Shown here: positions 18,126-62,800 of the stretch, piece after piece
Layout of the letters: every line of letters starts with the position of its first letter
Position numbering within the stretch: position 1 is the stretch's first letter
IMG/VR virus record: IMGVR_UViG_3300025816_000007
Origin: an uncultured virus (IMG/VR IMGVR_UViG_3300025816_000007)
Lineage: Duplodnaviria > Heunggongvirae > Uroviricota > Caudoviricetes
Length of the DNA: 62,951 nt
Reading direction: 5' to 3' (one strand)
The notes under the pieces: generated by a model
Told to the model about the DNA's origin: nothing
Seen by the model: only the letters and a program-made list of their open reading frames with translations
The model's database searches: none
Program-made: the position numbers and the translations under genes

Positions 18126-18234
18126 GCCAAAAAAAAATATGGGGAGGACACGGCTCATCTCGTGGTGAACCAGTAGCTCCAGCCTCCTTACAGAGGAAAA
18201 TGTCCTATTACCTTACCAAGAACCCATGTTTAAT
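18126..18234 (-). terminator. Structured small unit ending in T9GG; end of the array
   Basis: Stems ATGGG/CCCAT, AGGACA/TGTCCT, GGTTCA/TGAGCC, then T-run. Confidence 0.55.
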
Positions 18235-18608
18235 TATTTACGAATTAGCCAGTTGAAAAACAGTTTATCTTCGTCTGCTAAATGATATTGACAGATTGTT
18301 ACAAACCTATCCTTTCCTTCAAACCATCTAGCGTATTGTTCTTGCAGCCATGAATCATTCAAAGCCTTTTGAACATCAATTTCCATTTTTTCTGCATCAT
18401 CGGACCACACCCCGTTTCCGTTGATTGACACCATCTCTTGTAACGATGCCTCATCAAATCTACACCTTGGGTGTGTTGCATAAAATTCAGCAAACCCATC
18501 AGCGCCGTTGTTCATATTCCATTTTTCCATCAGCATTCTGAATGCTTTGTAAATTATCTTATCTAATACCTTACCTGTTTGATTCAAACCCTCATATAAC
18601 GATTCCAT
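18234..18608 (-). CDS. Hypothetical protein
   Basis: ORF starting at motif ATG. Confidence 0.7.
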   Translation of the reverse strand: MESLYEGLNQTGKVLDKIIYKAFRMLMEKWNMNNGADGFAEFYATHPRCRFDEASLQEMVSINGNGVWSDDAEKMEIDVQKALNDSWLQEQYARWFEGKDRFVTICQYHLADEDKLFFNWLIRK

Positions 18609-18610
18609 GT

Positions 18611-18832
18611 TCAATGTGCGATTACCCCTAGTACAATGAAGCGTTCATGCACCGGAATATATTTCCCGTCCCACACAAGTTCAAGGTGTGGGATATCATT
18701 AATACCTGGGCAAATAATCACTTTTTTTGTCAATGCCTCATGTGCGTTCTTTCCAGACAATTTTCCCTTCTCAGGGTGTGTAAATCTATGTCCACAGAAA
18801 ACGCATTCAAGTTCAAACTCAAACTTTGGCAT
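18611..18832 (-). CDS. Small Cys-containing (Zn-binding?) protein
   Basis: CVFC...CPG; stop within motif. Confidence 0.6.
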   Translation of the reverse strand: MPKFEFELECVFCGHRFTHPEKGKLSGKNAHEALTKKVIICPGINDIPHLELVWDGKYIPVHERFIVLGVIAH

Positions 18833-19196
18833 AATATTTACACCCTTCTAATTCTTCTTTTATCACGCTCGGTATACGATCTCCTAATTCATCAACAATA
18901 TCATAATACCATTTTGGCGCATAGTCGAGAAGGTGTTTGTTGCCTTCTAATTGCCAAGTCAAGTATGTCGCCCCTATCTTTGCGGCTTCTTTGCCCTTAA
19001 CTAACAAAACTGTATCTATTCTTTTTAGACCCATATATTCAATGTACCCATATAGTTCAATATTTTTTTTCGCTATTCCCAAGGCTAACCTCAATAAGTC
19101 TCGAAGTCCGTCTAGGTCGTCACAGTTACCCAAAGTGTAAGGTATAACCATGGCGACATAATCTTTCAGTTCATCTTGTGTCAATTTCGCCTCCAT
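18819..19196 (-). CDS. Hypothetical protein
   Basis: ORF from motif ATG. Confidence 0.7.
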   Translation of the reverse strand: MEAKLTQDELKDYVAMVIPYTLGNCDDLDGLRDLLRLALGIAKKNIELYGYIEYMGLKRIDTVLLVKGKEAAKIGATYLTWQLEGNKHLLDYAPKWYYDIVDELGDRIPSVIKEELEGCKYYAKV

Positions 19197-19198
19197 GT

Positions 19199-19369
19199 TC
19201 AATCTAAATGCAATATTTCGCCACACTTAGGGCATTCTAAGTTCCCGTTATCCATCGTTTGGAAATACCGTGGCTTTTTGCATTTGTGACATTCAATCGG
19301 ATAACCTTTATCTTCCACCTTAACTAGGTGTTTTGGATTTCTTCTAGGGTGCTTATCAGACCATTTCAT
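19199..19369 (-). CDS. Zinc-ribbon protein, 56 aa (not in ORF track)
   Basis: MKWSDKHP...CHKC...CPKC..LHLD*, running from motif variant to motif. Confidence 0.7.
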   Translation of the reverse strand: MKWSDKHPRRNPKHLVKVEDKGYPIECHKCKKPRYFQTMDNGNLECPKCGEILHLD

Positions 19370-19371
19370 GT

Positions 19372-19608
19372 TCAAATTCTCCTTATTATCTTCGCATTCT
19401 TGTGGTTGTATTCGCCAGTGTATTCAAAATTAGGATTTTTGGTTAGCCAAGTCGACAAACTTTGAGTACAAGGCATAGTCCTTAGACTTCTATAATTTCC
19501 ATCAAATGTTCTTTTCTGGTACATCAAATCAATTATGCCCGACGCACTAGACTCGAAACCAGGTTCTGTTATTTTTATACAGAAATCAATAATCCCTTGT
19601 TTCGTCAA
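19372..19608 (-). CDS. Hypothetical protein
   Basis: TTGA overlap start with GGAGG upstream. Confidence 0.6.
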   Translation of the reverse strand: MTKQGIIDFCIKITEPGFESSASGIIDLMYQKRTFDGNYRSLRTMPCTQSLSTWLTKNPNFEYTGEYNHKNAKIIRRI

Positions 19609-19865
19609 ACCTTTGCCTCCAAATCCTCTCTACTCCACCATATTTTGATAACCTCAACTCGATCACGTAGTTTACCGTATGACCGTATTTGAGATTCAAT
19701 CGGCAAACCACTTCCCGCACCTGACTTTACCTCGATAATTTCACTTATTTCGTGTTCATCAAGCGGGGTGCTTTCCAAAATGCCTATGAAATGGTCGTAT
19801 TCGTCCCATTCCATCTCGGCTACTTTTCCACACTCATAATGTATTTCTAACCAAGTTTCGTCCAT
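19605..19865 (-). CDS. Hypothetical protein
   Basis: ORF from motif ATG. Confidence 0.65.
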   Translation of the reverse strand: MDETWLEIHYECGKVAEMEWDEYDHFIGILESTPLDEHEISEIIEVKSGAGSGLPIESQIRSYGKLRDRVEVIKIWWSREDLEAKV

Positions 19866-19867
19866 GT

Positions 19868-20710
19868 TCAATTTGCTATAACCATCAATTCTTTTGGCGT
19901 AGCATTTGCTCTATTATCAAAATCAAACCAGTTAAACAGGCTATAACACCATCCGGACATACAACCGTCCTCTTGACCTTCGCCCTCATTCCAAAGTCTA
20001 ACATCACTCATAATTTCACTAATTTTCTGTTCTTCATCTATTAACTCTTGACTGATTCTATCAATCACAGAAAATCGTAATTCGAATGACAACTTTTCGT
20101 ATGTTTTCAATTCAAATTCCAATTCTTCTGCTGTGTCTTTTATTGAGTCCCAAAGATGGCAACAATGACAACTAGCGGAAGGTGAACCATACGCCTTTTC
20201 ATACTCTGCCCATGATTTCGCAGGTCCTAGATAACTACTGTGTTGTACAAGACCTAACCCCCAAATATCTTCATGCACACAAATCAACTTAGCTTTGGTT
20301 TTACCAGTCGTTAGTGCAATCAATTCTAATTCATCAGGTGTTTTTTCACAGTAAAACGAGTCGTCACCATGCCAATTTTCCTCATCGTAGTAACAATGGC
20401 CTTCTTTCCATAGCCATTCTGCAGTATATCCTCCCCAACCACAACACGATACAATAAAATCCACACCTGTTCCAAAATACTTTTGCAATTGTGCCTTTGT
20501 ATAATGGACATCTGCGTGTTCGTGACACCCTGATTCGATATTAATTACTGCAAATTTATATTCTTTTTTCAGTTTTTTTTCACATTCTCTGCCAATCGGA
20601 GATTTTCTGCTTGATTCTAATTTGTATTTCTTTTTACAAAGTAAACAAGCATCAAACTCCTTTGCATCATACACGTGTTCTACAAAACCTTTATCTTCAA
20701 ATAAATTCAT
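19868..20710 (-). CDS. Protein with N-terminal DUF6011-like Zn finger
   Basis: CLLCKK...S..SPIGRECEKK. Confidence 0.65.
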   Translation of the reverse strand: MNLFEDKGFVEHVYDAKEFDACLLCKKKYKLESSRKSPIGRECEKKLKKEYKFAVINIESGCHEHADVHYTKAQLQKYFGTGVDFIVSCCGWGGYTAEWLWKEGHCYYDEENWHGDDSFYCEKTPDELELIALTTGKTKAKLICVHEDIWGLGLVQHSSYLGPAKSWAEYEKAYGSPSASCHCCHLWDSIKDTAEELEFELKTYEKLSFELRFSVIDRISQELIDEEQKISEIMSDVRLWNEGEGQEDGCMSGWCYSLFNWFDFDNRANATPKELMVIAN

Positions 20711-20712
20711 GT

Positions 20713-21762
20713 TCAATCTGCACTATTTTGAATTCTTTCAATGTGCTCTTTAATCGTAAGCCTTCTTTTTTCATCTCCAATAACAAACTTGTGCTGTATC
20801 AAAGTTGCTTTCCCATGCTTGTTTACGCCTTTTTCAATGCAGGCGGACTCACCACAAAAACCAGTAACATACGGTTGTCGGTGATGTCCATGATTGCATC
20901 GACCACCTTTGTTTAGTGGTTCGCCTGCTTCATGCCATAGCACATGCTTATCGATTTTGTAAAAATTTTCTTCAATCTTTAATGCCTCTTTTAGTCCAAT
21001 ACCATCAGATTCTACAAGGCGATCTATCTCCCAATCTGACAACCAAGGGCACCACATACATGATGACTTGGCTACTGGTGAACCATCGCCTTTGTAATCC
21101 CAATTCATGTGTTTTAGGATATCAAGGCAATCTTCCCTTGTCAAATTCATTTCAATCAGCGGATACAGGAATTCGTGTCCTGTTCTATCGTCCGACATCT
21201 TTGCTCGGTTCATTGTGAACCTCTTGTGTCTTTTACTTTCATTAGCTTCTATACCCAAGCTCCAAATCTTCAATGATTCTGGAAACTTTTCATCTGCCCA
21301 TTTCCTTTGTACACCACCTTTGAACTTATCAGAACATACGTGGCTTGCACCTGGAAGCATAGGCAAAACGCTAGAATCCGTCAACCATTCGTGAATGGTA
21401 TAAGGCTCAACAACATAACGAAATTGATTTTTCGATATATCATCTAAACTTCTGTACTCCTTTACCCTAATTCTATCATTAGTAATTTTATGCCGATAGA
21501 ATCCTTGCTTAAATTGTAATATCTCAAGGTCTAGGCCTTTGTCATAACAAAGGCGTTCAGCATATTCTATGTTTTCATAAGTCTCAGGCCATTCTGAACC
21601 TGGGTCTGCGAATACAACATAGTCATAATCTGGTATGTACTTTCTTAATTCTTTAACTGTAATTCCTAAATATTCTGCAGCTTTCTTTGGCTCTAGGTTC
21701 ATCGCTAAAATTGCGCTAGAGTCAACTCCTCCTCCAAAACTCAAAAAGTTTATTTCGTTCAT
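20713..21762 (-). CDS. PAPS reductase-family (PP-loop) protein
   Basis: LSFGGGVDSSA, FADPGSEWPETY, YPLIE, KSSCMWCP. Confidence 0.8.
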   Translation of the reverse strand: MNEINFLSFGGGVDSSAILAMNLEPKKAAEYLGITVKELRKYIPDYDYVVFADPGSEWPETYENIEYAERLCYDKGLDLEILQFKQGFYRHKITNDRIRVKEYRSLDDISKNQFRYVVEPYTIHEWLTDSSVLPMLPGASHVCSDKFKGGVQRKWADEKFPESLKIWSLGIEANESKRHKRFTMNRAKMSDDRTGHEFLYPLIEMNLTREDCLDILKHMNWDYKGDGSPVAKSSCMWCPWLSDWEIDRLVESDGIGLKEALKIEENFYKIDKHVLWHEAGEPLNKGGRCNHGHHRQPYVTGFCGESACIEKGVNKHGKATLIQHKFVIGDEKRRLTIKEHIERIQNSAD

Positions 21763-21764
21763 GT

Positions 21765-22109
21765 TCAATCGGAGTTCCTATTCCAATGGTTAGTCACTCG
21801 CCTGTAACTGGTGTGTTTCAATCCGTCTTTCTTTGATTCAATCCAGCCTTTTTTTGCGGCATGTTGCACGAAGCCCTTTACTTTGGCGTTCTCCAACATT
21901 GACGCTGGCGCCTGTAATTCTTTTCGTATTTGCCTTATGCTTTTCCAACGATCATCAATGGCTAACAAAACTAATGCAAAGTCAGTCAACATGTATTGTT
22001 TGTTGAAACCGCCTTGTTTCCAGGACATGTCTAAAGTTACATTTATTGCACTAACGAATCCTGATTTATGCGTCACATCTATCTTTTTCTTAGTAAACGG
22101 TTCTTCCAT
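21765..22109 (-). CDS. Hypothetical, winged-helix-like
   Basis: ORF motif to motif. Confidence 0.6.
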   Translation of the reverse strand: MEEPFTKKKIDVTHKSGFVSAINVTLDMSWKQGGFNKQYMLTDFALVLLAIDDRWKSIRQIRKELQAPASMLENAKVKGFVQHAAKKGWIESKKDGLKHTSYRRVTNHWNRNSD

Positions 22110-22111
22110 GT

Positions 22112-22972
22112 TCAATAATCACTTTCGATTCTAGGAGCCAAAAAGAATTGTACATACAATTTTCTTTCTGATTCATACCCGAAATCCCAGTTAACTGATA
22201 TACTTATCGGGTAATTATCTCCTGATTCAATCGTAATTTGTTGTTTCTTCAATGCTTTTGCAATACCATGGAGGTAGCTCAAACTAAATTGAGATCTTGA
22301 CCTTCCATTTTCATGCTTTGCAGTTTCGTTATTTAGTTCTGTAGATACCGAAGTCGAGTTTTCACTTTGCCCTTTGATTGTAGAAGTTATTAGTTTCCCA
22401 TCTTCAATCTCAATGAGCATCAAATCTGCAACTGACTTGCATAGTTCAACTTTATTCAGGAAATCTTCACCCGACAGCGTAACTTTTGCTGGCAAACTCA
22501 TTTGTGGCACATTAGGCCAACTCATTGCATTAGACAGAAGATTGTAGCTTACGACCTTCTTCTTATCTTCGCTTTCATTCACAATTGTAAGATGTTTTTT
22601 ATCGTTATTGATGTGTATATCTAGCATTTCAGCGTAAGTCTTAGCATCTCCTCTGCCAGTAGCCTTACCCCACTTTGCTTTCTTCATCAAGTTTAGAACA
22701 TTCTTAACATCAATGTCAACTCTCTGCGCCATTCCTAAGTTGTGTAACGGTTTTGCACCGTAATTTACGTGAACCATCGAAATGTGCGATGGGTCGACTA
22801 ATTTGCATTCAATCAATCCATCACAAAACGCTATCTTTGCATCGCAATTTACTACATTTAAAACCTCTAATACAGTCATTAATTCTATTCCTGGAATCTT
22901 TACTTCCAAGTCTCCATAATTTACTGAATTTTCAGCAATCTTATCTTTAACCTTCTTTTTACTAACTACCAT
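22112..22972 (-). CDS. pcn: DNA polymerase sliding clamp (PCNA)
   Basis: VDPSHISMV, SQFSLSYL, GDNYPI, C-terminal FFLAPRIE. Confidence 0.9.
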   Translation of the reverse strand: MVVSKKKVKDKIAENSVNYGDLEVKIPGIELMTVLEVLNVVNCDAKIAFCDGLIECKLVDPSHISMVHVNYGAKPLHNLGMAQRVDIDVKNVLNLMKKAKWGKATGRGDAKTYAEMLDIHINNDKKHLTIVNESEDKKKVVSYNLLSNAMSWPNVPQMSLPAKVTLSGEDFLNKVELCKSVADLMLIEIEDGKLITSTIKGQSENSTSVSTELNNETAKHENGRSRSQFSLSYLHGIAKALKKQQITIESGDNYPISISVNWDFGYESERKLYVQFFLAPRIESDY

Positions 22973-22974
22973 GT

Positions 22975-23127
22975 TCAATTTATCAGTTTAGAATAAATCC
23001 ATGCAAACGGGATTACTAGCATAGCTACGATGATTATAACGACAGCTAATGGCAGTTCCAAAAAGAGTATTCTCTTCACTGACATGTCCCTGTATCGCTT
23101 TCCATCAATCATCGATGTGCTATCCAT
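22975..23127 (-). CDS. Small membrane protein, 50 aa
   Basis: Hand-translated; ILFLELPLAVVIIVAMLVIPFAWIY; stop in motif. Confidence 0.55.
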   Translation of the reverse strand: MDSTSMIDGKRYRDMSVKRILFLELPLAVVIIIVAMLVIPFAWIYSKLIN

Positions 23128-23128
23128 T

Positions 23129-23425
23129 TCAGTCCCTAGCCCAAACCAAATTCAATACTGGTGCTTTTTCGTTATCGCTATTGTTTTTGAATGCAATAAT
23201 TTTAACATTTGCTGGAATTGTAATTTCCTTTGTAATCCACTTCTCTGCAAAAACCTTTGAATCATGCCTGACATTTCCATCTTTGTCTTTTGGCTTCCAT
23301 AGCCCACAGATTTCCTTGTATCGTGTGTTCTCTGTCATCATAAGTTTATGCGCTGCTTCTTGAAATGATATTCCTTCCTCTTTAACAATTTCTTCAACCT
23401 TTTCCAAATATACTTCATATTCCAT
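23129..23425 (-). CDS. Hypothetical protein
   Basis: ORF from motif ATG. Confidence 0.65.
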   Translation of the reverse strand: MEYEVYLEKVEEIVKEEGISFQEAAHKLMMTENTRYKEICGLWKPKDKDGNVRHDSKVFAEKWITKEITIPANVKIIAFKNNSDNEKAPVLNLVWARD

Positions 23426-23427
23426 GT

Positions 23428-23745
23428 TTAATCACCCTTATGTCTTAGGTGTAACGAACTAAGCCAAAAAATCTTTCGTATTTCTTTATCTGTAAACTCG
23501 ATATTGTTAATTTTGAGAGACACCGGTATTCTTGGTATTTCCACATTAGAATTCATATTATCATCTAAGTATTCTATAAAACGATCTTCTTCTTCAAATA
23601 TCGGTAAATGTGTTGCATAATTAAATAAATGCATATCACACCATAGCCTTATTGCTACATTCCCTATCATCTTATGCTCATTAGCCTCATCGAAAGGCCT
23701 TCTATCTGCTGTTTTCATTTTCTCAATCAACTTGTCTTCCTTCAC
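23428..23745 (-). CDS. Hypothetical protein (GTG start in motif variant ATTGAACGTG)
   Basis: ORF motif variant to motif. Confidence 0.6.
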   Translation of the reverse strand: MKEDKLIEKMKTADRRPFDEANEHKMIGNVAIRLWCDMHLFNYATHLPIFEEEDRFIEYLDDNMNSNVEIPRIPVSLKINNIEFTDKEIRKIFWLSSLHLRHKGD

Positions 23746-23747
23746 GT

Positions 23748-24059
23748 TCAATGTAATTCGTTTGGATTTATGATTGCTACATCGCCCACAAGAATTGTGA
23801 ATCCTTTGTGTGCCTGATTACCTTCCCATAGAATCCTTGTAGCAGCGTCATTTGGAGGTTTGCCCCTCAAATCGCCCTCTTCATCCATTATCATTAGTTT
23901 CTCTACCCCATCAACCATAACAGGCAGAGTTGTTACATATGTGCATTTGCAGATATCATACAACTCTTCTAATTTGTAGAATTGTCCTTTAGGAACTATG
24001 TCTTCTATCACTTGCTGTTCTGTTTCCTCATTAATCTCTGTTCGTATAACTAATCCCAT
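23748..24059 (-). CDS. DUF3846-like protein
   Basis: YKLEELY..C, MIMDEEG.L...PPNDAAT, ILVGDVAI. Confidence 0.7.
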   Translation of the reverse strand: MGLVIRTEINEETEQQVIEDIVPKGQFYKLEELYDICKCTYVTTLPVMVDGVEKLMIMDEEGDLRGKPPNDAATRILWEGNQAHKGFTILVGDVAIINPNELH

Positions 24060-24061
24060 GT

Positions 24062-24364
24062 TCAATATCTTGGGTCGCCCCAATTCTCCATATCGATTCT
24101 GTGTTGGTTATCTGAATTTGATTGAGACCTGTCAATCATGTAATCCCAATCAATGTCCAGGTTTTCTAGTGCCTCTACAATCAACTGTGCATCCTTCTTT
24201 CCGTCTCTTTCGTTACTTTTCCCAACAAATGTATGCTCTGGTAGCGGTTCTTCTGCGTATTCCGCAACAGATTTCTTGAAATCTTTAATTTCTTTTCTAA
24301 TCCTATATACTTGACTTAATAACATCTCATAATGCTTTATATCACCGTAGTTACTTTCTTCCAT
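24062..24364 (-). CDS. Hypothetical protein
   Basis: ORF motif to motif. Confidence 0.65.
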   Translation of the reverse strand: MEESNYGDIKHYEMLLSQVYRIRKEIKDFKKSVAEYAEEPLPEHTFVGKSNERDGKKDAQLIVEALENLDIDWDYMIDRSQSNSDNQHRIDMENWGDPRY

Positions 24365-24366
24365 GT

Positions 24367-24771
24367 TCAATCATCTCCTTCCTCGTAGTGTCCTTTGAAA
24401 GCCTCTTTCAATTCAGCCTCATTCATGTTGAGTAACTTCTCATGCCAAAAAGCAATTTCTTCTTCTTGGCTGCCTCCTGTTCCCGATAGGCGTATGGCAT
24501 CCCATAACAAGTCCAACTCTTTCTTTTGGCTTATTTGGGGTCGTCTTGAGAGTCGTAGGCTTTCCTTACCGGCTTCCCAAATTTCTTCAATCGTATCTTT
24601 CGCACGTTCCAATTTCAACCAATATTCATCGCCCTCGAATTTTCCCAATAATTCTTCGAAGACACTTTCATGATGGTCTTCAAATGCAAGTGTATTCCCC
24701 CAAGATAACGCCATTTCAGCTACTTTCAAATCCAATTCATATTCCTTATCCAATTCATATTCCTTATCCAT
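24367..24771 (-). CDS. Acidic hypothetical protein with N-terminal DKEYEL duplication
   Basis: ORF motif to motif. Confidence 0.65.
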   Translation of the reverse strand: MDKEYELDKEYELDLKVAEMALSWGNTLAFEDHHESVFEELLGKFEGDEYWLKLERAKDTIEEIWEAGKESLRLSRRPQISQKKELDLLWDAIRLSGTGGSQEEEIAFWHEKLLNMNEAELKEAFKGHYEEGDD

Positions 24772-24773
24772 GT

Positions 24774-24986
24774 TCAATTCCAAACCTCGTGTTGGGTTCT
24801 TAGCACATGAATGCAATGTCCCAATTTCACTTCTGGTATTTCCTCATTTCCTTCCAGTATAGCAACTGCATATCCCATAGATTGTTGTTGGTCTAAGCCT
24901 TTCCTCATTCCTTTCATCATAGCTCTAATAATCATGGAATATTGTAAATCAGATTCTGTCTCAATTTCTCCTTTGTATGTTACCAT
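24774..24986 (-). CDS. Hypothetical protein
   Basis: ORF motif to motif. Confidence 0.6.
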   Translation of the reverse strand: MVTYKGEIETESDLQYSMIIRAMMKGMRKGLDQQQSMGYAVAILEGNEEIPEVKLGHCIHVLRTQHEVWN

Positions 24987-24992
24987 GTTCAA

Positions 24993-25922: not shown

Positions 25923-25924
25923 GT

Positions 25925-55179: not shown

Positions 55180-55181
55180 GT

Positions 55182-55679: not shown

Positions 55680-55692
55680 GTTTAATTGTTAA

Positions 55693-55839: not shown

Positions 55840-55841
55840 GT

Positions 55842-56126
55842 TTAATCTTCTATCCAAAATGTTCTAGTTTGGTAATGCTTTCCTTTTCTCTTTCCTTCTT
55901 TGGCCTTAGTCTTAGACCTTAGAATTATCAGAACTCTTGTTCGCATCACTGTCTTTTTCCCTTTCTTGATTGGTATTGATGTAGTATCAATTGATTCTAC
56001 TATCCAAGTTTTTATCTTATCCATCAAGGGACTTTTTTGCACTAGTTTCTTGCTCAACAATATCTTGGTTTTGACTTCATCTCCAACTGAAATGTTTTTG
56101 ATTGGTCTTCTGTCAATCATTACCAT
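55842..56126 (-). CDS. Basic hypothetical protein
   Basis: ORF ending in motif. Confidence 0.65.
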   Translation of the reverse strand: MVMIDRRPIKNISVGDEVKTKILLSKKLVQKSPLMDKIKTWIVESIDTTSIPIKKGKKTVMRTRVLIILRSKTKAKEGKRKGKHYQTRTFWIED

Positions 56127-56538
56127 TCCACCTGCCTTGAAGTATTACTTGCTCGAAGGTAATCTTACCATCTTTACGCGTTTTATCCCGTTGTCTTCCA
56201 AATTTAGAAACGATTTCATTCATCTTCAAAACCTTGCCCTCATCTGGAATTACTTGCCATTCTTCACCGACCTTTTCTGTAGCCCATGCTTCAAGCGGGA
56301 ATTGTCCGTCTTCGAGTGCTTCAAGTGTTTCAGATTGCAATGATTCAATTCCAAGTTCTTTGAGGAAGCCGTCTATGAGTATATTCAACCCATCTATAGT
56401 ATTGATTAAAGATTCATTTGTCGAATCTACATCCACCACTTCTCTCAATTTCCTATCAACCATTTCTTGCTGAACTTTTTCTCTTTCTTTTCTTAGTTCT
56501 TGTACTCTTTTGTTAACATCTTTTATTCTGTTACCCAT
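56113..56538 (-). CDS. Hypothetical protein
   Basis: ORF from motif ATG. Confidence 0.65.
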   Translation of the reverse strand: MGNRIKDVNKRVQELRKEREKVQQEMVDRKLREVVDVDSTNESLINTIDGLNILIDGFLKELGIESLQSETLEALEDGQFPLEAWATEKVGEEWQVIPDEGKVLKMNEIVSKFGRQRDKTRKDGKITFEQVILQGRWNGND

Positions 56539-56686
56539 GTTCAATTACTGATTACTCCATTATCCTGTTACAACCTTTACAGCTAGTTGGGTGACACCCA
56601 ACGTGGCGCGGCATAGGATTGTCGCATTTACAAATTTCCTCTGGAAAGTATTCATCATCTTCTAAATTATCTTTCATGTTTAATCA

Positions 56687-56902
56687 TCACCTAAACCGAC
56701 TTAGCGGGGGCATTCGCCCCATAGCCATGCACTTTAGCAGTTCAACATCTTCTATTTCAGTGATTTGCACCAATTCAAGTTTCTTGATTGCTTTTTTAGT
56801 TGCTAACCACATATGAATTGTATTTGCATCATCTCGGTTGTTCATATAGTGACATACTCTTTTTTTGTTTTTTACATATGTTATTACATATCTTTTAGCC
56901 AT
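56687..56902 (-). CDS. Hypothetical protein
   Basis: ORF. Confidence 0.55.
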   Translation of the reverse strand: MAKRYVITYVKNKKRVCHYMNNRDDANTIHMWLATKKAIKKLELVQITEIEDVELLKCMAMGRMPPLSRFR

Positions 56903-57488
56903 TGACAATCACCGTGTCAGGAAGGTCAGCTACTGTGATGCTTGAATCTACTACAACCCAAACATTAGCTGTTCCACCTCGGCTTGTTGGCCTTCTTTCT
57001 CCCGACTTGCCTACGACACCTGCTTTGTCTAGCAGGCCTCTAGGGTATCGAATTGAGTTTTTCTTTGCTTCTTTTCCAAGATTCAAACGCTTTTCAATAA
57101 CAGACTGTATTTCGTCATCTGTCAAACCGTCTTCATGATCGAGTAGTGCCTGGTAAATGTCCCTTGACATCTGCCCAATCGCTGCTGTGCTTGGTAGTTC
57201 TTTTTCTCCATCTCCGTATAGTTCCAAACGATTAAACAATACTTTCAATCTATTATTGATTATCTCGTCATCTTCTGCACCTAGCAGAATATCTAACATA
57301 GTCTGCATCATGCTTCGGTTTCCAATTCCAATTTTCCCATCAGGGAATAATTGTCTCATTAGATCGAATTCTTGTTTACTCAAATTCAGTATCAAGTGAT
57401 GCTCATTTACAATATGTCCATCTCTAAGGTTCACGTCGTTTTGAATAAAGTCAACTTCTCCGCCTTTCAAATCACTCATTTTTCTCAT
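56895..57488 (-). CDS. Winged-helix DNA-binding protein
   Basis: GLTDDEI...SIRYPRGLL..G.V..SGERRPTSRG..ANVW. Confidence 0.7.
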   Translation of the reverse strand: MRKMSDLKGGEVDFIQNDVNLRDGHIVNEHHLILNLSKQEFDLMRQLFPDGKIGIGNRSMMQTMLDILLGAEDDEIINNRLKVLFNRLELYGDGEKELPSTAAIGQMSRDIYQALLDHEDGLTDDEIQSVIEKRLNLGKEAKKNSIRYPRGLLDKAGVVGKSGERRPTSRGGTANVWVVVDSSITVADLPDTVIVNG

Positions 57489-57512
57489 GTTAAATCCCTT
57501 ACTTCACTAAGG

Positions 57513-57580
57513 CCAAAAAAAAAGCGACCCTGCTCGGTTCTTTCTTCTGCCGAGTAGAGTCGTTAATTGTTGTGTTTAAT
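57513..57580 (-). terminator. Hairpin plus T9GG terminator-like unit headed by motif variant ATTAAACACA
   Basis: CGAC..CTGCTCGG / CCGAGTAG..GTCG stem; A9 on +. Confidence 0.7.
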
Positions 57581-57589
57581 TTGATTACC

Positions 57590-57907
57590 TCATTGTGAGG
57601 CGTCGTTAGCGAAATTTCTGACCCTCCTCACAAGGTCATTTGCGGCAAGTGACTCATCTGATAAGTCATCTTTTATTATCCGCAAAGCCTCTGTAAGTTT
57701 GGCCTCTCTAGCATCCCAATCTCCAGTTCCATTCTTCCAAAAATAGAATTCTTTCACTTGCCAAAGTTCGATACTGCCTATTTTGCCCACCAAGTAGCGG
57801 CGCTTATGCCAGTATTCTTCAGGCGCTAGATGCTTAAAGTTGTCTTCTGGAATAAATTCTTTCCCATCTATAACTATCACTGCTTCCTTTTCGTTCACTT
57901 TTTCCAT
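57590..57907 (-). CDS. Hypothetical protein
   Basis: ORF from motif ATG. Confidence 0.65.
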   Translation of the reverse strand: MEKVNEKEAVIVIDGKEFIPEDNFKHLAPEEYWHKRRYLVGKIGSIELWQVKEFYFWKNGTGDWDAREAKLTEALRIIKDDLSDESLAANDLVRRVRNFANDASQ

Positions 57908-57926
57908 GTTAAATTTTTTAATAAGG

Positions 57927-57958
57927 GCCCTTAACGCCCCCTAGGGGGCGAGAAGGGC
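57927..57958. other. GC-rich hairpin GCCCTT..CGCCCCC-TA-GGGGGCG..AAGGGC
   Basis: Near-perfect inverted repeat in intergenic gap. Confidence 0.7.
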
Positions 57959-58035
57959 ATTTATGCTGTTGCTGTTATTTTTCCTTCCTCGTCACAGCAT
58001 ATTAATTCATAATTCACCATTTGGCCGTAAATCCT

Positions 58036-58998
58036 TCAAGCTTCGACTTGTATTGCTTCCGATTCCTCTTCCACGTAAAAGTCATTAATTCTTGCTGGCT
58101 TACTTACCAAACGGTGTTCTTCGACATTCAATTCATACTTGTGTGCAGGCTTAAAACCGAATAGTGGATTGCTTTTACACCATGTCCACTTAGGGAATAC
58201 ATTGTAGTGCTCCCCTTTCCTGTTCATCCTGATTATATTTTCACATGAGCACTTTGATTTGCTTGCATCGCAAAAAGTTCTTACAAATTCACTATGATTT
58301 GACCTGTTCCAAGTCTTGACTTGATTGTGGATTGGCGTGTATGCCTTTTTCTTTCCAACAAACAACCACTCTCCCCACATGTTGTCCCACCTATATTGTG
58401 AGTCATCAATGTATTTTGCGGAGTCTCTTTGGAATTTGTCTTCGCCCCAGTTTTCCAGTCGGGCTTGAGGATGTTCAGCGGACTTTTCTTCCACTTTCCT
58501 CAGTAGAGGCATATTTTCTTGCTCTATCATCAAATCGTAGATTTCTTCATTATTTTGAAGGTAATCCCATTCATCGAATAACATAGAGTGTCTGCCAGCC
58601 TCATATCCCGCTTCATTTTCCTTTGTAATTTCATCCATGGCTTCTACCAATAAATTTTCTGCTGCCAAGGCCGTCAAAACTATCTGACCTGTAGCTGTGT
58701 TATGGCACATTCCATTTAGTGCCAGTTTTCGGTAATGCCAGGAATTGTCTCCGTAGTTCTCTAACTCATTGTTTTCTTGTGCATCAATTTCAAACATAGC
58801 TGTGTTGTCATTGTAGCGACCAAAAACCTCGTTCACAAAAAAGCCTTTCAATCCCCAATATGGGTGTTTTTCTCCGCCTTTCATTTGGTGAACTCCGAGG
58901 TCCCCTGGTGCTTTCGAATGTTGAGCCATGATTGGTGATGCTGTACAAAATATGTTATGTCCTTCTCCTATCGTTCCTGTTTTGAATTTATTATTCAT
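58036..58998 (-). CDS. Hypothetical protein
   Basis: ORF from motif ATG. Confidence 0.7.
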   Translation of the reverse strand: MNNKFKTGTIGEGHNIFCTASPIMAQHSKAPGDLGVHQMKGGEKHPYWGLKGFFVNEVFGRYNDNTAMFEIDAQENNELENYGDNSWHYRKLALNGMCHNTATGQIVLTALAAENLLVEAMDEITKENEAGYEAGRHSMLFDEWDYLQNNEEIYDLMIEQENMPLLRKVEEKSAEHPQARLENWGEDKFQRDSAKYIDDSQYRWDNMWGEWLFVGKKKAYTPIHNQVKTWNRSNHSEFVRTFCDASKSKCSCENIIRMNRKGEHYNVFPKWTWCKSNPLFGFKPAHKYELNVEEHRLVSKPARINDFYVEEESEAIQVEA

Positions 58999-59006
58999 GT
59001 TTAATT

Positions 59007-59249
59007 TCATAAAGTTGAAAAGTCACTAGCACCAAGCCACATATCATATTGTAACTCTACTGTATCCTTGTCCAAAGTGTATTGTTCATTGCCAATGAAA
59101 ATAATCACTTCATTGCCAAGTTTTTCAGCCCATAATGCAATTTGCATTTCTATTTGTCTATTTGACGCTTTATCGAATTTCATCGATGCTTCGTTTAGAT
59201 CAATACTTCCTTCTCTACCTCTATTCGCAAGCCATAATTGCCTTGTCAT
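59007..59249 (-). CDS. Hypothetical protein
   Basis: ORF from motif variant ATTAGACATG. Confidence 0.6.
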   Translation of the reverse strand: MTRQLWLANRGREGSIDLNEASMKFDKASNRQIEMQIALWAEKLGNEVIIFIGNEQYTLDKDTVELQYDMWLGASDFSTL

Positions 59250-59322
59250 GTCTAATTGTATATTGTAAGTTTACAATATATTCTATCTGTTTATCTTTAT
59301 CTTTATCTTTATTTTTCGTTGT

Positions 59323-59362
59323 AAAAGGAGGAGAAGGGGTCGCATTGCTGCGACCCCCCTCC
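59323..59362 (-). terminator. Hairpin GGGGTCGCA-TTGC-TGCGACCCC, terminator-like
   Basis: 9-bp perfect stem 59336-59357 followed by pyrimidine/T tract on minus. Confidence 0.55.
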
Positions 59363-59552
59363 AAAATTCCACATTTAGAATGATTCGCCACTACCCTTCG
59401 ATTCTAACCCGATTCGTAGTGGGTGTTAACTCAATTAAGTCATATTGACGCAATCCTTGAGCACACGGCTTCATTGGGTTTCCCCTTCACCGCATTCACA
59501 TAGTTTCACTTTTTATGTGGGTTTCTAATAATATAAACTAATGATTGTAGCT

Positions 59553-61064
59553 TTACTCGTTAAAAACTTGGTTTATATTGAGGTCTATCATGTAATCTGA
59601 TTCCTCATTTTCTGCCAGTTCAGAGTATCCTAAACTTACACCTGCACCAGTGAATTTCACAAATGCTTGGTGTATTGGGTTGCTAACCATGTTATTTAGT
59701 TCTGTAGTCCATGACTTCTTTTCTGCTGGGTCCGTAGGTGGCCTATTTTCTAACAACATGTCTTCCTTGTTCGAAAACAGTGTCTGCCACTTGTGGTGGT
59801 CGCTTCCGGCTTTTGGCCTTCCACTCGCTTCCGCTGCCTTGTAACCATGCTCAGGAATTTCTGTTTCATCATCAACAAATATTATCATTCGAGCACCGGT
59901 GTAAACACCAAATCCTCTCACCAAATGTCTTAGATGGTCCAGTTGTTTTTCGTCAATTCCCTTTGTATCATTAGCGTAAAATGCCCCATTGCTTGAGCCA
60001 AGAAGGGTTTTCAAGTTGATGTTATTTCTAACCTCGCACTCAATCCAATTCTTTTCGACTGATGTTATGCTCGCCAGTTCTGCTGGTATGCATGGTTGAG
60101 GAGCCAATACTGTGTTAAACATAGGATAACTAATCTTTGCAACACCCTTTTTCAAGGCGATGCTGTTGATATCATCCCAGTCCATTTTTCCAGCGTCCTT
60201 CATACCAATGCGTTCCTTTGCTTGGTCTGCTCTAGTCAAAATTTTTCCATTCTCGTCAAGCACTGAAATTCGGCTTTTTTGTATTACTGGAGCATTAAAT
60301 ACTCCATCTGCCGGCATTTCCGCAATTGCTATAACTTCCCATTCATTCGAACTGTTCAGTAGTTTTTTACCAAATTTGTTCGTCCTGTAAGTCTTTTTCA
60401 CAAAGAAGAGTTGATTCTTTTCCTCAGCATTGTCATCATAAACAACATTGCCCATAAGTAAGTTTATCATCATGTTCGCCTCGTATGCATTCCACAAACG
60501 CTCCTTTTTCTTGAAGCTGATTTGTTGGACTTGCTGATATTGTTCAGCAGTGTCGTTGTCCCTTCGCTTTCGAGTGTACCAAGATCTGTTTAGGTAGTTT
60601 CTTGCATCCAATAGTGATTCCATTGATGCACTAACTCTAACATTGTCCCTACCAGTACCCCTGTATTCTATACCCACTTCACCTTTAGTTTGGTTGATGT
60701 GATAAACAAGTCTACTTTCAGGAATACCAAGTTTCCTAATTGCTTTGAGTAGCCAAGCCGCTTCCGGCGTTTTTGGCGTAGCATGTTGTACAGCCTCATC
60801 GTAAAATGATACTGCTAACTTTTCTGCTATAACATCGAACCAGTAACTAGGAGCAATAAATTTTATGCTCCATGTGTCGTTTTTCTTGTCGAAGTTTCTC
60901 TCAATCTTTAGCTTCTTATTTTCATTATTTGACAGCCTATCTACGATAGAACGGTACATAACTAGACCTGTAATAATCCAGTTTACCGCTTTATTCTTCA
61001 ATTTGTCCGTCAAGCTCATTTCTCTTTTTTTATTTTCTGTTTTTGTTTTTTCTTTATTTCCCAT
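59553..61064 (-). CDS. Large hypothetical protein, 503 aa
   Basis: Long ORF with GGAGGT SD; no family recognised. Confidence 0.8.
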   Translation of the reverse strand: MGNKEKTKTENKKREMSLTDKLKNKAVNWIITGLVMYRSIVDRLSNNENKKLKIERNFDKKNDTWSIKFIAPSYWFDVIAEKLAVSFYDEAVQHATPKTPEAAWLLKAIRKLGIPESRLVYHINQTKGEVGIEYRGTGRDNVRVSASMESLLDARNYLNRSWYTRKRRDNDTAEQYQQVQQISFKKKERLWNAYEANMMINLLMGNVVYDDNAEEKNQLFFVKKTYRTNKFGKKLLNSSNEWEVIAIAEMPADGVFNAPVIQKSRISVLDENGKILTRADQAKERIGMKDAGKMDWDDINSIALKKGVAKISYPMFNTVLAPQPCIPAELASITSVEKNWIECEVRNNINLKTLLGSSNGAFYANDTKGIDEKQLDHLRHLVRGFGVYTGARMIIFVDDETEIPEHGYKAAEASGRPKAGSDHHKWQTLFSNKEDMLLENRPPTDPAEKKSWTTELNNMVSNPIHQAFVKFTGAGVSLGYSELAENEESDYMIDLNINQVFNE

Positions 61065-61881
61065 TTCGATACCTCCATATCGTAATTTTGTTGTTCAATT
61101 ATGTTAAATCAAAGTTTCATCTCTATTTTGTTTATCACTTCGGCATAATCCTGTCTGCCTCCGATTTGCGAATTCCAAATCACTACTCCAACAACCCGAT
61201 TCCAAAATATATCTTTTGGATTACAAAATGTCCATTGCATTTCTGTATGCTCCCATACTGAGTAGAAATGTTTGTCAATTTCGATTTTGGGTTTGATTCA
61301 AATTCACATATTAGGCTCTACTGTCTCCAGCGAACTTTCATATCTTCCTTTGAACCAAGTTGTTGTAAGAGTAGCTTCAAAACTCCATAGTTCTTCCACT
61401 TATCCTTGTGTGCTCTCCTATCTGGAATAATCCAGCTAATATGCTGGATTAAGCACGTATTATGTTCAATTGCTTGAATCCCTCAACTGCTTTTACACAG
61501 GAGAGTTAGAGTGTAGGTTCAAAACCTTCCATTCTTTCGATGGCATCATTTTATCCGTCGATTCGCATCAACAGCCTGGACTCAATTATTAGACTTCCAT
61601 TCGTCCAACCATTCGCTTTTGTTCCGATTCATTTCACGTACTTCGTGGGCGGGCCTTATCCCCATCTTCCAACTTCTGTATTCATTCTGTTCTGCACAGA
61701 TATGACACTTCCATTACCCGGTGTATCGGTTGATTGAAGGCATTGTTACCACGTAGCCGTGATTTGGTATAATTTAACCATTTTACCCTCCTGGACCTTC
61801 AATCGTATGAAGAGACACGCGCGATATACGCCACTCCGCTCCTCTTCACTTTACTAGGTCATTGGGGTCTTAAGCCCCTCC

Positions 61882-62199
61882 CTAATGTTTAATTTTGTTA
61901 AGTTTCGATAACTCATAACTCCACCATGATTCATCAGGCCTCCAAGACCCAAATTTGTATAGAGCCTCATTTGCTCTCCATTGTTCCATGAGTGGTTTTA
62001 GTGCGTCGGCTCGCCTGTGTTGCCCCCTTCCAAAGGCCATTCTGCGAGCCAAACGACTAACTTTGCCATCAAAACTTCCTTCTTTTGATTGCTTATGTCG
62101 CTCCCAAAAAATAGCATTTTCTATCCGTTCTAGTTCTTGCTGTTGTTTTCTGTAAAAGTCTAGTTCTTTTTTGTAAAAGTCTATATCTACTTCTTTCAT
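61882..62199 (-). CDS. Hypothetical protein
   Basis: ORF from motif ATG. Confidence 0.6.
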   Translation of the reverse strand: MKEVDIDFYKKELDFYRKQQQELERIENAIFWERHKQSKEGSFDGKVSRLARRMAFGRGQHRRADALKPLMEQWRANEALYKFGSWRPDESWWSYELSKLNKIKH

Positions 62200-62212
62200 G
62201 TTAAATTGTAAT

Positions 62213-62800
62213 TATGTTTAATTGATGAATCATTAAGTGGTGTAACGCCGCTTCCGATAACCTTCCTCAGTTGCATAAGCAACCGTATGATAGCTTAGTC
62301 ATACCCCGTAAGGGTTTAGACTAGAGTAGCCTCGGTTCTGTTATTCCAATGACATTGCTGTCAATGAAATCTATCAAATGTCTGACGACCATAATGTCCC
62401 TCGGAATTTACCGAGTGTCCAACCCACCCTTTCGTTTGATGTGGTCCTTTACGCCATTACACCTGATTCATCTTAGTGTATTTATTCATACCCCTGCTCC
62501 ACGGGGGTTAGATCTTCATCCTTCTGCTCTTTCGAGTGTTGTCGGTTTCTGTTGTCAATTACTCAACTCCGCCGACAGCTTGCCTCTGGTAAGCAACCAA
62601 AGGCAGTTCACGGATGATGCTTATTCGAAGGCGTGACTAAGTGAAGCTCACGTATCTTCGAATGTGTTCAGTCGGTAAACCGTAATTCCTCAAGATTATC
62701 CTTGCTAAAGGTTCCTTGAGGCGACTTGTGAGAGTCCTTAGACTCACCGACTTCAATATTATATGCTACTGGGCGGTTAAGCCCTGTCCATATGTTTAAT
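62213..62800 (-). ncRNA. Candidate large structured ncRNA (~570 nt) bounded by two ATTAAACATA motif variants
   Basis: About ten or more stems incl. long-range GATGAATCA/TGATTCATC and GGTGTAA/TTACACC; strand inferred from motif orientation. Confidence 0.6.

What the first reader, a model, noticed from the sequence alone, without database searches (positions are those of the whole stretch)
18225..62800. A 44-kb array of genes and RNAs punctuated by one 10-nt motif, ATT(G/A/T)AACATG: candidate new system
Seen: about 83 exact copies (manual count), all in one orientation, roughly one per 530 bp, and none seen in 1-18.2 kb. The motif ATG starts nearly every gene, which is why the ORF track shows so many 'MNM' N-termini. 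Motif-started genes show no consistent SD. Inference: three mechanisms fit. (a) A minimal transcription initiator giving leaderless mRNAs, analogous to the poxvirus late TAAATG element and possibly read by the element's own RpoA2 variant. (b) An endoribonuclease site that cuts one long transcript into leaderless mRNAs and small RNAs. (c) The crossover scar of a cassette-capturing recombinase: ATTTAAC matches the integron inverse core RYYYAAC, but no attC hairpin follows. I know of no described system with this architecture, but could not search the literature.
Basis: partly seen in the sequence, partly recalled or inferred. Interest (0 to 1): 0.95.

Follow-up and report, generated by a model that had tools for sequence, protein, structure and literature searches.

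The report
Ten-letter gene-start word in a marine virus
Nearly every gene in a 44-kb stretch of this marine, probably archaeal, virus-like element begins with the same ten-letter word ending in the start codon; related elements use their own versions of the word, and it most likely marks where each RNA starts.

Summary
ATT[G/A/T]AACATG occurs 84 times against 1.6 expected: 83 on the minus strand at 18225-62206 and one on the plus strand at 12848. Its ATG opens an ORF of 30 aa or more in 79 of 83 cases. All conservation lies in 10-11 nt.

Relatives with a homologous RpoA''-like protein (down to 26% identity) keep the same architecture but use other words: ATTT[G/A]ACATG, ACTGAACATG, ACTGACCATG and ACC[G/A]CTCATG.

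Versions of the word lacking TG sit in front of hairpin and T-run units and of two tRNA genes. The word therefore marks RNA 5' ends, not only translation starts.

Other genes carry a second word, TNAAACGG, 28-29 nt upstream of the ATG, a spacing typical of archaeal leaderless genes. Complete relatives encode a TFB-fold protein and the RpoA''-like subunit, but no detectable catalytic RNA polymerase subunits.

Best reading (0.55): a minimal, lineage-specific initiator promoter that gives leaderless mRNAs.

Gene cassettes also differ between relatives exactly at the word. No RNA 5'-end data were available.

The parts
18225..62206 (-). One-strand array of 83 copies of ATT[G/A/T]AACATG, each giving the start codon of a gene. 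There are about 80 mostly small genes. They include DNA methyltransferases (Dam, N6_N4, C5, Mom-like), a PAPS-reductase-like protein, and DUF6011 and DUF3846 proteins.
62791..62800 (-). ATTAAACATA, a TG-less version of the word. It heads about 570 nt with no long ORF, running to the next copy at 62222.
   Evidence: no Rfam match
61100..61109 (-). ATTTAACATA. Its 8th base lies 38 nt upstream of the ATG (61064) of the 503-aa gene 59553-61064, which has a GGAGG before its start. This is a word-led unit with a leader.
61461..61470 (-). ATTGAACATA heading a noncoding stretch. Similar copies lie at 61884-61893 (ATTAAACATT) and 62213-62222 (ATTAAACATA).
41144..41233 (-). Small noncoding unit made of ATTGAACATA, then a long perfect hairpin, then T9. 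A second structured stretch with T6 (41053-41048) follows, and then the next word-led gene (word at 41024).
57495..57523 (-). T9-GGCC (a hairpin and T-run like the array-end terminators), followed 19 nt later by ATTTAACATG of the next gene.
23743..23752 (-). ATTGAACGTG, the word with a GTG start codon.
18040..18234 (-). Array end. The last copy of the word (4-aa ORF only) is followed by a structured stretch and two hairpin and T-run terminators (T9 at 18137, T7 at 18107). The same layout, with TG-less words, is seen in relatives.
17825..18077 (-). Second word TTAAACGG (18077-18070). Its first base lies 28 nt before the ATG (18049) of a conserved 74-aa gene.
15147..17831 (+). RpoA''-like protein (RNA_pol_Rpb1_5) with a long insertion that carries four invariant Cys. 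It is convergent on the array in every relative.
12848..12857 (+). The only plus-strand copy (ATTAAACATG). It starts the LRAT/NlpC-like gene 12855-13355.
18235..22969 (-). 4.7-kb block of 7 genes that is absent from relatives L002 and L003. It is bounded by the copies of the word at 18225-18234 and 22970-22979.

Best explanation
The word is a minimal, virus-specific transcription start signal, an initiator-type promoter. Seven lineage-specific bases are followed by C(-1)A(+1). RNA synthesis is proposed to begin at the A, which for protein genes is the A of ATG, so each gene yields a leaderless mRNA. For noncoding RNAs and tRNAs the TG is dispensable.

The likely reader is the host archaeal RNA polymerase, reprogrammed by two element-encoded proteins: a TFB/TFIIB-fold factor and a variant RpoA'' subunit. 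Because the same 10 nt precede every gene, they also serve as micro-homology where cassettes are exchanged.

Shown:
- the anatomy and statistics of the word;
- its lineage-specific versions;
- the TG-less copies before noncoding units and tRNAs;
- the fixed-distance second word;
- the TFB fold;
- the cassette boundaries.

Inferred:
- the start site at A;
- which proteins read the word;
- the archaeal (Poseidoniales) host;
- early timing or an anti-defence role of the array.
For: 1. Only 10-11 nt are conserved, with no SD and no TATA.

2. The word differs by lineage while ...CATG and the architecture stay the same:
- WIN: ATTDAACATG, 83 copies.
- L004: ATTTRACATG, about 25.
- Nine loci: ACTGAACATG, 5-25 copies each.
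- G001: ACTGACCATG, 60, all on one strand.
- G002: ACC[G/A]CTCATG, 98, all on one strand.
This fits a co-evolving element-encoded reader rather than the ribosome.

3. TG-less versions keep the word up to the A and head noncoding units:
- WIN 41233: hairpin and T9.
- WIN array head: 5 copies.
- Array-end units in WIN, L004, L012, L015, L016/17, L021, L023 and G002.
- G002: ACCGCTCA without TG occurs 8 times on the array strand, 7 in or next to the array, against about 2 expected per strand. The counts are; the expectation is my arithmetic.

4. In G002 the word lies less than 10 nt upstream of tRNA-Lys. A one-mismatch copy lies directly upstream of an intron-containing tRNA.

5. Position 8 is A or G (ATG or GTG) and position 7 is always C. 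This is the pyrimidine-purine rule for start sites (established knowledge).

6. A second word, TNAAACGG, lies at a fixed distance from the ATG. It has 77 hits in 13 sequences. 41 of them are followed by an ATG-ORF of 50 aa or more within 15-45 nt, and 28 of those 41 are at exactly 28-29 nt. My count on the sequence printed puts the same word 28 nt before the 5' end of tRNA-Arg. This is the TATA-to-start distance of archaeal leaderless genes (established knowledge), so these elements do place the ATG at RNA 5' ends.

7. T-run terminator-like elements inside the array are followed within 19-30 nt by the word and nothing else (57523, 41053, 23471).

8. G001 and G002 encode a protein next to the array head with a TFIIB repeat (E 7.9e-5 and 1.8e-3). 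Its model has mean pLDDT 70.8. The model's top structural matches are TFIIB/TFB: 7egb_R at E 6.9e-8, and P. woesei TFB 1d3u_B with TM 0.74. All relatives encode RpoA''.

9. The nearest named cellular thermosomes are from Poseidoniales MAGs.
Against: - No RNA 5' ends were seen. The four RNA runs laid are assembled contigs and cannot show starts.
- A promoter confined to -7..+3 with no upstream element is unusual for multisubunit polymerases.
- In 57 of 82 junctions the upstream ORF ends inside the word or within 12 nt of it. Most transcripts would therefore have to read on through downstream genes.
- No terminator follows most genes.
- The link between the TFB-like or A''-like proteins and the word is guilt by association. 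The TFB-like gene is not inside the window.
- The TG-less copies in WIN are few: 6 against roughly 1 expected, by my estimate.
- G001's tRNA-Lys has no word upstream.
Confidence: 0.55

Rival explanations
1. RNA processing site. The array is transcribed as long precursors from the head, and an element-encoded or host endoribonuclease cuts at or in the word. This releases leaderless mRNAs and small RNAs.
For: - It explains equally well the lineage-specific words, the TG-less copies before noncoding units, and the tight packing with upstream stops inside or next to the word.
- The array ends with three consecutive hairpin and T-run terminators, which implies heavy read-through transcription.
- No terminator follows most genes.
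Against: - No nuclease candidate was found by Pfam or PHROGs in the window.
- Internal T-run terminators directly upstream of word-led genes would block a precursor.
- A cut next to tRNA 5' ends would be redundant with RNase P.
- The elements carry transcription-initiation proteins.
- The parallel TNAAACGG word at the TATA-like distance shows that ATG-at-5'-end is achieved by transcription elsewhere in the same genomes.
Confidence: 0.2
2. Translation signal. The word is read on the mRNA, by the ribosome or by a viral factor, to start or restart translation at internal AUGs of polycistronic RNAs, replacing the Shine-Dalgarno sequence.
For: - The ATG is part of the word, and a GTG variant exists.
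- There is no SD.
- 35 of 82 upstream ORFs stop at T[G/A]A inside the word in the window.
- The region downstream of the ATG is AT-rich.
Against: - The stop position relative to the word differs by lineage: inside it in WIN, 3-8 nt before it in G001, and directly before it in G002. G002's word holds no stop codon.
- TG-less copies precede noncoding hairpin and T-run units and tRNAs.
- Words differ between lineages, whereas rRNA tails are conserved.
- One copy lies 38 nt upstream of an SD-led gene.
Confidence: 0.07
3. Recombination site as the primary function. The word is the crossover site of a cassette-capturing recombinase, making the array an integron-like system.
For: - Indels and replacements between relatives end exactly at the word. 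WIN 18235-22969 is absent in L002/L003, and WIN 18235-18604 is replaced by 675 nt in L001.
- 112 of 272 homology-block ends inside arrays fall within the word +-3 nt, while such bases make up 2.4-4.9% of the arrays.
- Array gene order is scrambled between WIN, G001 and G002.
- G001 and G002 encode a serine recombinase.
Against: - The site would be only 10-11 nt and asymmetric, with no attC-like inverted repeat.
- No recombinase is in the window.
- This reading does not explain the obligatory start codon, the TG-less copies before tRNAs, or the strict single orientation.
- Gene boundaries and words coincide, so any exchange of whole genes must end there. Exchange at repeated regulatory words by short homology is a sufficient explanation.
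Confidence: 0.08

Closest known systems
Coccolithovirus (EhV) immediate-early gene motif
   Same: [quoted passage not shown]
   Different: EhV is a eukaryotic giant virus with its own full RNA polymerase, and its motif sequence is different. Here the host is probably archaeal, the word changes between lineages, it also heads tRNAs and noncoding units, and it bounds exchanged cassettes.
Poxvirus late promoter TAAATG (recalled, not from a call)
   Same: A very short initiator overlaps the start codon, every gene has one, and the upstream gene's stop often overlaps it.
   Different: The polymerase and host are different. Poxvirus late mRNAs carry poly(A) heads, and no such data exist here.
Jumbo-phage RNAP promoters (phiKZ, AR9)
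   Same: About 10-nt conserved motifs, 'different from phage to phage', mark the early genes. The phiKZ late promoter is only T(-3)ATG(+1), overlapping the start site (PMC7598289, passages).
   Different: Those phages encode complete beta/beta'-like enzymes, and their early motifs centre at -10. Here only an A''-like subunit and a TFB-fold factor were found. The word abuts and includes the start codon.
Archaeal BRE/TATA promoters of leaderless genes (established knowledge)
   Same: The ATG sits at the RNA 5' end. The elements' second word TNAAACGG lies 28-29 nt upstream, as a TATA box would.
   Different: Array genes have no conserved element at -25 to -35 at all. All their information is at -7..+3.
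Integron cassette arrays; T4-type PeSL mobile regulatory cassettes (both recalled)
   Same: One-way arrays of small accessory genes whose units are exchanged at a repeated boundary sequence.
   Different: There is no attC hairpin, no tyrosine integrase and no common Pc promoter. Unlike PeSL, there is no promoter-plus-stem-loop module, only 10 nt that include the ATG.
Magrovirus 'group D' elements
   Same: They come from marine metagenomes and carry genes for RNA polymerase A, thermosome and resolvase 'with highest similarity to archaeal homologs'. Their nature is undetermined and no capsid gene has been found (PMC5434244; PMC10160649; PMC11706807). The window holds the RNAP A''-like gene. G001 and G002 have all three genes.
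   Different: Pfam DNA_pol_B, listed for group D, was not detected in G001 or G002, so membership is likely but not shown. The passages I looked up in those papers mention no gene-start word.

Membership tests
Integron (attC cassette array) | attC: imperfect inverted repeat of 57-141 bp with core and inverse-core sites at each cassette end (recalled) | tested here: not met
   Nothing is conserved beyond 10-11 nt around the 83 copies. Only the 14 ATTTAAC copies fit RYYYAAC; the 48 ATTGAAC copies do not.
Integron (attC cassette array) | Adjacent IntI tyrosine recombinase with Pc promoter; promoterless cassettes | tested here: not met
   There was no integrase or recombinase hit among the 98 window proteins scanned. 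The complete relatives have a serine recombinase far from the array head.
Integron (attC cassette array) | Gain, loss and reordering of single cassettes with breakpoints at the repeated site | tested here: met
   (112 of 272 block ends at the word +-3 nt)
Initiator-type viral promoter overlapping the start codon (poxvirus-late or EhV-IE kind) | Short conserved motif ending in or at the ATG of most genes of a class | tested here: met
Initiator-type viral promoter overlapping the start codon (poxvirus-late or EhV-IE kind) | RNA 5' ends map to the motif | not testable with these tools
   Only assembled RNA contigs were available.
Initiator-type viral promoter overlapping the start codon (poxvirus-late or EhV-IE kind) | Virus-encoded transcription machinery able to read it | tested here: inconclusive
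   A TFB-fold protein and an RpoA''-like protein are present. No Rpb1_2, Rpb2_6 or TBP match was found in the two complete relatives. No binding test is possible.
Canonical archaeal promoter (BRE/TATA about 26 nt upstream) | Conserved element 23-37 nt upstream of the start | tested here: not met
   The information profile is flat from -60 to -2 for array genes in WIN, G001 and G002. The feature is met only by non-array genes through TNAAACGG.
Shine-Dalgarno-led bacterial-type genes | GGAGG-like element 5-10 nt upstream of the start | tested here: not met
   No such signal precedes the 83 copies. It is present before some non-array genes.
Magrovirus group D | RNA polymerase A, thermosome, resolvase and DNAP B genes of archaeal type; marine; no capsid gene found (PMC5434244) | tested here: inconclusive
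   RNAP A'' is in the window. Thermosome and resolvase are in G001 and G002. The nearest named cellular thermosomes are Poseidoniales. DNA_pol_B was not detected. No direct comparison with published group D contigs was made.

The most novel reading that the evidence does not exclude
A widespread lineage of marine archaeal virus-like elements takes over the host RNA polymerase by supplying its own A'' subunit and a TBP-independent TFB paralogue. Together these read a 7-nt, lineage-specific word directly abutting the start site. Every gene, tRNA and small RNA of a 45-kb accessory array thus carries its own 10-nt promoter and is made as a leaderless RNA. The same word serves as the joint at which genes are swapped between elements. 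The result is a self-expressing cassette array, functionally an integron without attC or integrase.
Probability: 0.3. Interest if true: 0.9.

Novelty: new variant of a known kind. Interest (0 to 1): 0.8.

Why it matters
**Transcription in archaeal viruses.** A review abstract seen in a search listing states that archaeal viruses encode no RNA polymerase and depend wholly on the host (PMC5569661). These elements carry an RpoA'' variant, a TFB-fold factor and a compact signal that no canonical archaeal promoter model predicts. If the word is an initiator-only promoter, it offers a simple system for asking how TFB-like factors and the polymerase cleft select start sites without TBP or TATA.

**Annotation.** The word gives an exact rule for gene starts, and for finding small RNAs, in an abundant, uncultured and so far uncharacterised group. 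That group is probably 'magrovirus group D', whose nature is described as undetermined in the passages read from 2017 to 2025.

**Genome evolution.** The word-bounded exchange of genes gives a concrete mechanism for the turnover of accessory genes such as methyltransferases, which are likely anti-defence genes.

Tried and rejected
- **RNA evidence.** One run search and one laying of four RNA runs gave only assembled contigs at small shares. They show that parts of the region occur in RNA libraries but cannot show 5' ends. Of about 60 listed piece ends, two touch a word, which I estimate is about what chance gives.
- **Public phage records.** tblastn with the RpoA''-like protein found no match. 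A single-protein scan of viral contigs found none; the alignment-based scan found two.
- **Whole genome and earlier findings.** Neither is held or open. The metagenome loci could not be extended.
- **RNA families.** There is no tRNA and no Rfam match at gathering score in the window. There is none at E<=1 in 55000-62951.
- **TFB-like protein.** A PDB sequence search found nothing; only the fold search did.
- **T-runs as general gene-end signals.** The rates are 1.07/kb in coding and 1.21/kb in noncoding sequence in WIN, so this is uninformative.
- **Stop codon as part of the signal.** Rejected, because the stop position differs by lineage.
- **CATG methylation or restriction avoidance as the reason for the word.** CATG is not depleted, with observed/expected 0.8-0.99.
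- **A guide RNA complementary to the word.** There are no antisense copies apart from the single plus-strand gene start.
- **Literature search for the bare sequence.** It returned only primer lists.
- **Polar orientation or packaging sequence.** Rejected, because the word is tied to start codons.

Full report
**1. The observation**

ATTDAACATG matches 84 times in the window, against a shuffle mean of 1.56 and a maximum of 4. 83 copies lie on the minus strand between 62206 and 18225, and one lies on the plus strand at 12848. The window's composition changes at about 18 kb to a strongly purine-rich minus strand, with GC skew about -0.26.

- The ATG of the word opens an ORF of 30 aa or more in 79 of 83 copies.
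- The ORF lister's TTG starts two codons upstream explain the 'MNM' N-termini.
- Position 4 is G 48, A 21, T 14 and never C.
- There is also one GTG version, at 23752.
- From -60 to +40 only the word and the base before it are conserved. There is no SD-like and no TATA-like signal.
- Sigma-70-like promoters and bacterial-type terminators are not enriched in the array.

**2. What the element is**

Pfam and PHROGs hits in the window:
- RusA, RNase H and a clamp-loader-like ATPase.
- Several DNA methyltransferases: Dam, N6_N4, C5, Mom-like and phrog_954.
- A PAPS-reductase-like protein, DUF6011 and DUF3846.
- An 894-aa protein with RNA_pol_Rpb1_5 at 15147-17831 (+).

Relatives of the Rpb1_5 protein:
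- It has only 15 metagenomic relatives. After those come an archaeal beta' and eukaryotic RPB1.
- Cellular genome hits are DPANN archaeal subunits.
- 34 marine metagenome loci and two complete IMG/VR records with direct terminal repeats carry homologues. The two records are G001 (128,784 bp) and G002 (127,570 bp).

Gene content of G001 and G002:
- They encode a group II chaperonin, a serine recombinase, PCNA (G001 only), glycosyltransferases and giant multidomain ORFs.
- Next to the array head lies a protein with a sub-threshold TFIIB repeat. Its AlphaFold model (12-sequence alignment, mean pLDDT 70.8) matches TFIIB/TFB structures first: 7egb_R at E 6.9e-8, and P. woesei TFB 1d3u_B with TM 0.74.
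- No Rpb1 domain 2, Rpb2 domain 6, TBP or DNA_pol_B match was found in either record.
- The viral chaperonin's nearest named cellular homologues (36-38% identity) are thermosomes of 'Euryarchaeota', Poseidoniaceae and Thalassarchaeaceae MAGs.

Comparison with 'magrovirus group D':
- Philosof et al. 2017 list DNAP, thermosome, resolvase and RNA polymerase A for group D. They report no closed genome and an undetermined nature (PMC5434244, passages).
- Passages from 2023 and 2025 still describe the group as lacking structural genes and as yet to be characterised (PMC10160649; PMC11706807).
- The gene content here fits, except for the polymerase B that I could not detect.
- Membership is therefore likely but not shown, and a Poseidoniales host is an inference.

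**3. The word in relatives**

Every relative with enough sequence has a one-strand array, convergent on the RpoA''-like gene, whose genes begin with a 10-nt word ending in CATG. The first seven bases depend on the lineage.

| Source | RpoA'' identity to the window | Word | Copies |
|---|---|---|---|
| Window, L001-L003 | 84-95% | ATT[G/A/T]AACATG | 83 in the window |
| L004 | 46% | ATTT[G/A]ACATG | 13 + 12 |
| L010, L012-L017, L021, L023, L024 | 28-36% | ACTGAACATG | 5-25 per locus |
| G001 | 40% on the best segment | ACTGACCATG | 60, at 73.7-113.9 kb |
| G002 | 26% | ACCGCTCATG / ACCACTCATG | 87 / 11, at 11.9-56.7 kb |

It is the word's place that is conserved.
- Gene order itself is scrambled. 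32 of 80 window array proteins have a BLASTP match in another array, and these matches are not collinear.
- Lineage-specific versions argue for a co-evolving, element-encoded reader rather than a conserved host component such as the rRNA tail.

**4. The word marks RNA 5' ends, not only translation starts**

(a) Stop codons:
- In the window, 35 of 82 upstream ORFs stop at T[G/A]A inside the word.
- In G001 only 2 of 59 do, although that word also contains TGA.
- In G002 the stop lies just before a word that holds no stop codon.
- The stop is therefore a packing effect, not part of the signal.

(b) Copies lacking TG keep the word up to the A and stand before noncoding units:
- Window 41233 has ATTGAACATA, a long hairpin and T9.
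- Five ATTDAACATA/T copies lie in the ORF-poor 61.1-62.8 kb head of the array.
- One of these lies 38 nt before the ATG of the SD-led 503-aa gene.
- At the array end a last copy is followed by a hairpin and tandem hairpin and T-run terminators. That copy is TG-less in L004, L012, L015, L016/17, L021, L023 and G002, and has a 4-aa ORF in the window.
- In G002, ACCGCTCA without TG occurs 8 times on the array strand, 7 of them in or beside the array, against about 2 expected per strand. The counts are; the expectation is my arithmetic.

(c) tRNAs in G002 and G001:
- The word lies just upstream of G002's tRNA-Lys.
- A one-mismatch copy directly precedes an intron-containing tRNA found by Rfam.
- G001's tRNA-Lys has none upstream.

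(d) A second, lineage-conserved word, TNAAACGG:
- It has 77 hits in 13 sequences.
- 41 of them have an ATG-ORF of 50 aa or more within 15-45 nt. 28 of those 41 are at exactly 28-29 nt.
- By my count on the sequence printed, the same word lies 28 nt before the 5' end of tRNA-Arg.
- This is the distance from an archaeal TATA box to the start site (established knowledge). These elements evidently place ATGs at RNA 5' ends, as leaderless mRNAs, by transcription.

(e) T-run elements like the array-end terminators occur inside the array, 19-30 nt before a word-led gene. Nothing else conserved lies in between (57523, 41053, 23471).

(f) Position 7 is always C and position 8 is A (or G). This is the pyrimidine(-1)/purine(+1) rule of start sites.

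**5. Mechanism proposed**

The word is an initiator-only promoter spanning -7 to +3, with the A as +1.

- Protein genes are made as leaderless mRNAs starting AUG or GUG.
- Noncoding RNAs and tRNA precursors start with the same A.
- Most transcripts would read on into downstream genes, since few genes have terminators. Only the 5'-proximal ORF of each RNA would then be translated, which would explain why every gene needs its own copy.
- Candidate readers are the TFB-fold protein and the RpoA''-like subunit. The latter has a long insertion with four invariant cysteines.
- In Pol II and archaeal systems the B-reader of TFIIB/TFB contacts the template strand just upstream of +1 (recalled). A factor reading -7 to -1 is therefore conceivable.
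- None of this was tested.
- I estimate confidence at 0.55. The main rival is an endonuclease site, at 0.2.

**6. Recombination**

- L002 and L003 lack window 18235-22969 (7 genes). The two homology blocks overlap by the word itself.
- L001 replaces window 18235-18604 by 675 unrelated bases between two copies.
- Over 15 sequences, 112 of 272 homology-block ends inside arrays fall within the word +-3 nt, where 2.4-4.9% of bases lie.
- Caveat: gene ends and words coincide, so whole-gene exchange must end there.
- Single cassettes are shared between otherwise different contexts, for example L012 9427-9861 with L016 14856-15288, both ends at words.
- I read this as exchange at a repeated regulatory word by short homology, in the manner of T4 PeSL cassettes (recalled). 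I do not read it as an integron-like site-specific system, because the attC and integrase criteria fail.

**7. Literature**

- Searches.
- 'Promoter' has 0 occurrences in PMC5434244, PMC10160649, PMC11706807 and PMC7481178.
- 'Motif' has 0 occurrences in the first two. I did not look it up in PMC11706807. In PMC7481178 its 6 occurrences, in the passages shown, concern protein motifs.
- The library lacks most subscription journals, and I opened no supplements.
- Closest analogues:
  - the coccolithovirus immediate-early motif ending at the ATG (PMC7239649);
  - jumbo-phage promoters, about 10 nt and phage-specific, with phiKZ late TATG at the start site (PMC7598289);
  - poxvirus TAAATG (recalled).

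**8. Limits**

- There are no RNA 5' ends.
- Host and group membership are inferred.
- The TFB-like gene lies outside the window.
- The absence of catalytic polymerase subunits rests on Pfam models, which can miss very divergent proteins.

Noticed in passing
window 14523, 18077; G002 (L050-L056) and 10 other loci: A second conserved word, T[C/T]AAACGG (often followed by NTGAAC), lies 28-29 nt before the ATG of non-array genes. This holds for 28 of the 41 hits that have an ATG-ORF within 15-45 nt. By my count it also lies 28 nt before tRNA-Arg in G002. It is probably the elements' TATA/BRE-position promoter for leaderless genes.
   Followed up: partly
G001 and G002 whole records; window: Extreme avoidance of some palindromes. 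ACGT occurs 0 times in both 128-kb records (179 and 213 expected). In the window CGCG occurs 5 times against 53 expected. GATC is at 0.25-0.43 of expectation. This suggests restriction pressure.
   Followed up: no
window 62800-62230 and 61893-61110 (minus strand); G002 57592-56764; G001 about 115600-113900: Long ORF-poor, hairpin-rich stretches at the head of each array, each begun by a TG-less copy of the word. No Rfam match. They may be large noncoding RNAs.
   Followed up: partly
G002 58150-57600; G001 about 116100-115600: About five tandem repeats of roughly 100 nt lie just upstream of the array head, between it and the TFB-like gene. They could be an origin or a regulatory region.
   Followed up: no
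G002 50413-50540 (L052 10413-10540, minus): A 128-nt tRNA match (44.8 bits), probably intron-containing, lies inside the array. ARAGORN missed it.
   Followed up: partly
G002 L054:8517-15893 (2459 aa) and L054:16083-20000; G001 L043:10018-18858 (2947 aa), L044:9899-16156: Giant multidomain ORFs. One fuses DUF5824, an ATP-dependent DNA ligase and a TFIIS-type zinc ribbon. Others carry guanylate kinase plus DUF7831 or DUF5754.
   Followed up: no
window 40325 and 40132 (minus strand): Two successive copies of the word are preceded by the same 47 nt. This is a local duplication of a leader with different versions of the word (ATTAAACATG and ATTGAACATG).
   Followed up: no
window 43949-43958 inside ORF 43595-44956 (minus): One copy of the word lies in frame inside a 454-aa ORF that itself starts at a copy. 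This may be an internal start giving a 119-aa product.
   Followed up: no
window 27618-28085, 51174-51987 and other gaps: Several word-led short ORFs are followed by a second ORF of 70-120 aa without the word, for example 49 aa then 104 aa. These may be coupled pairs or frameshifted genes.
   Followed up: no
window 59553-61064 (minus): This SD-led 503-aa gene with no family match is the longest part of the laid 20 kb covered by RNA-library contigs in two runs of one study. Contig depth cannot rank expression.
   Followed up: no
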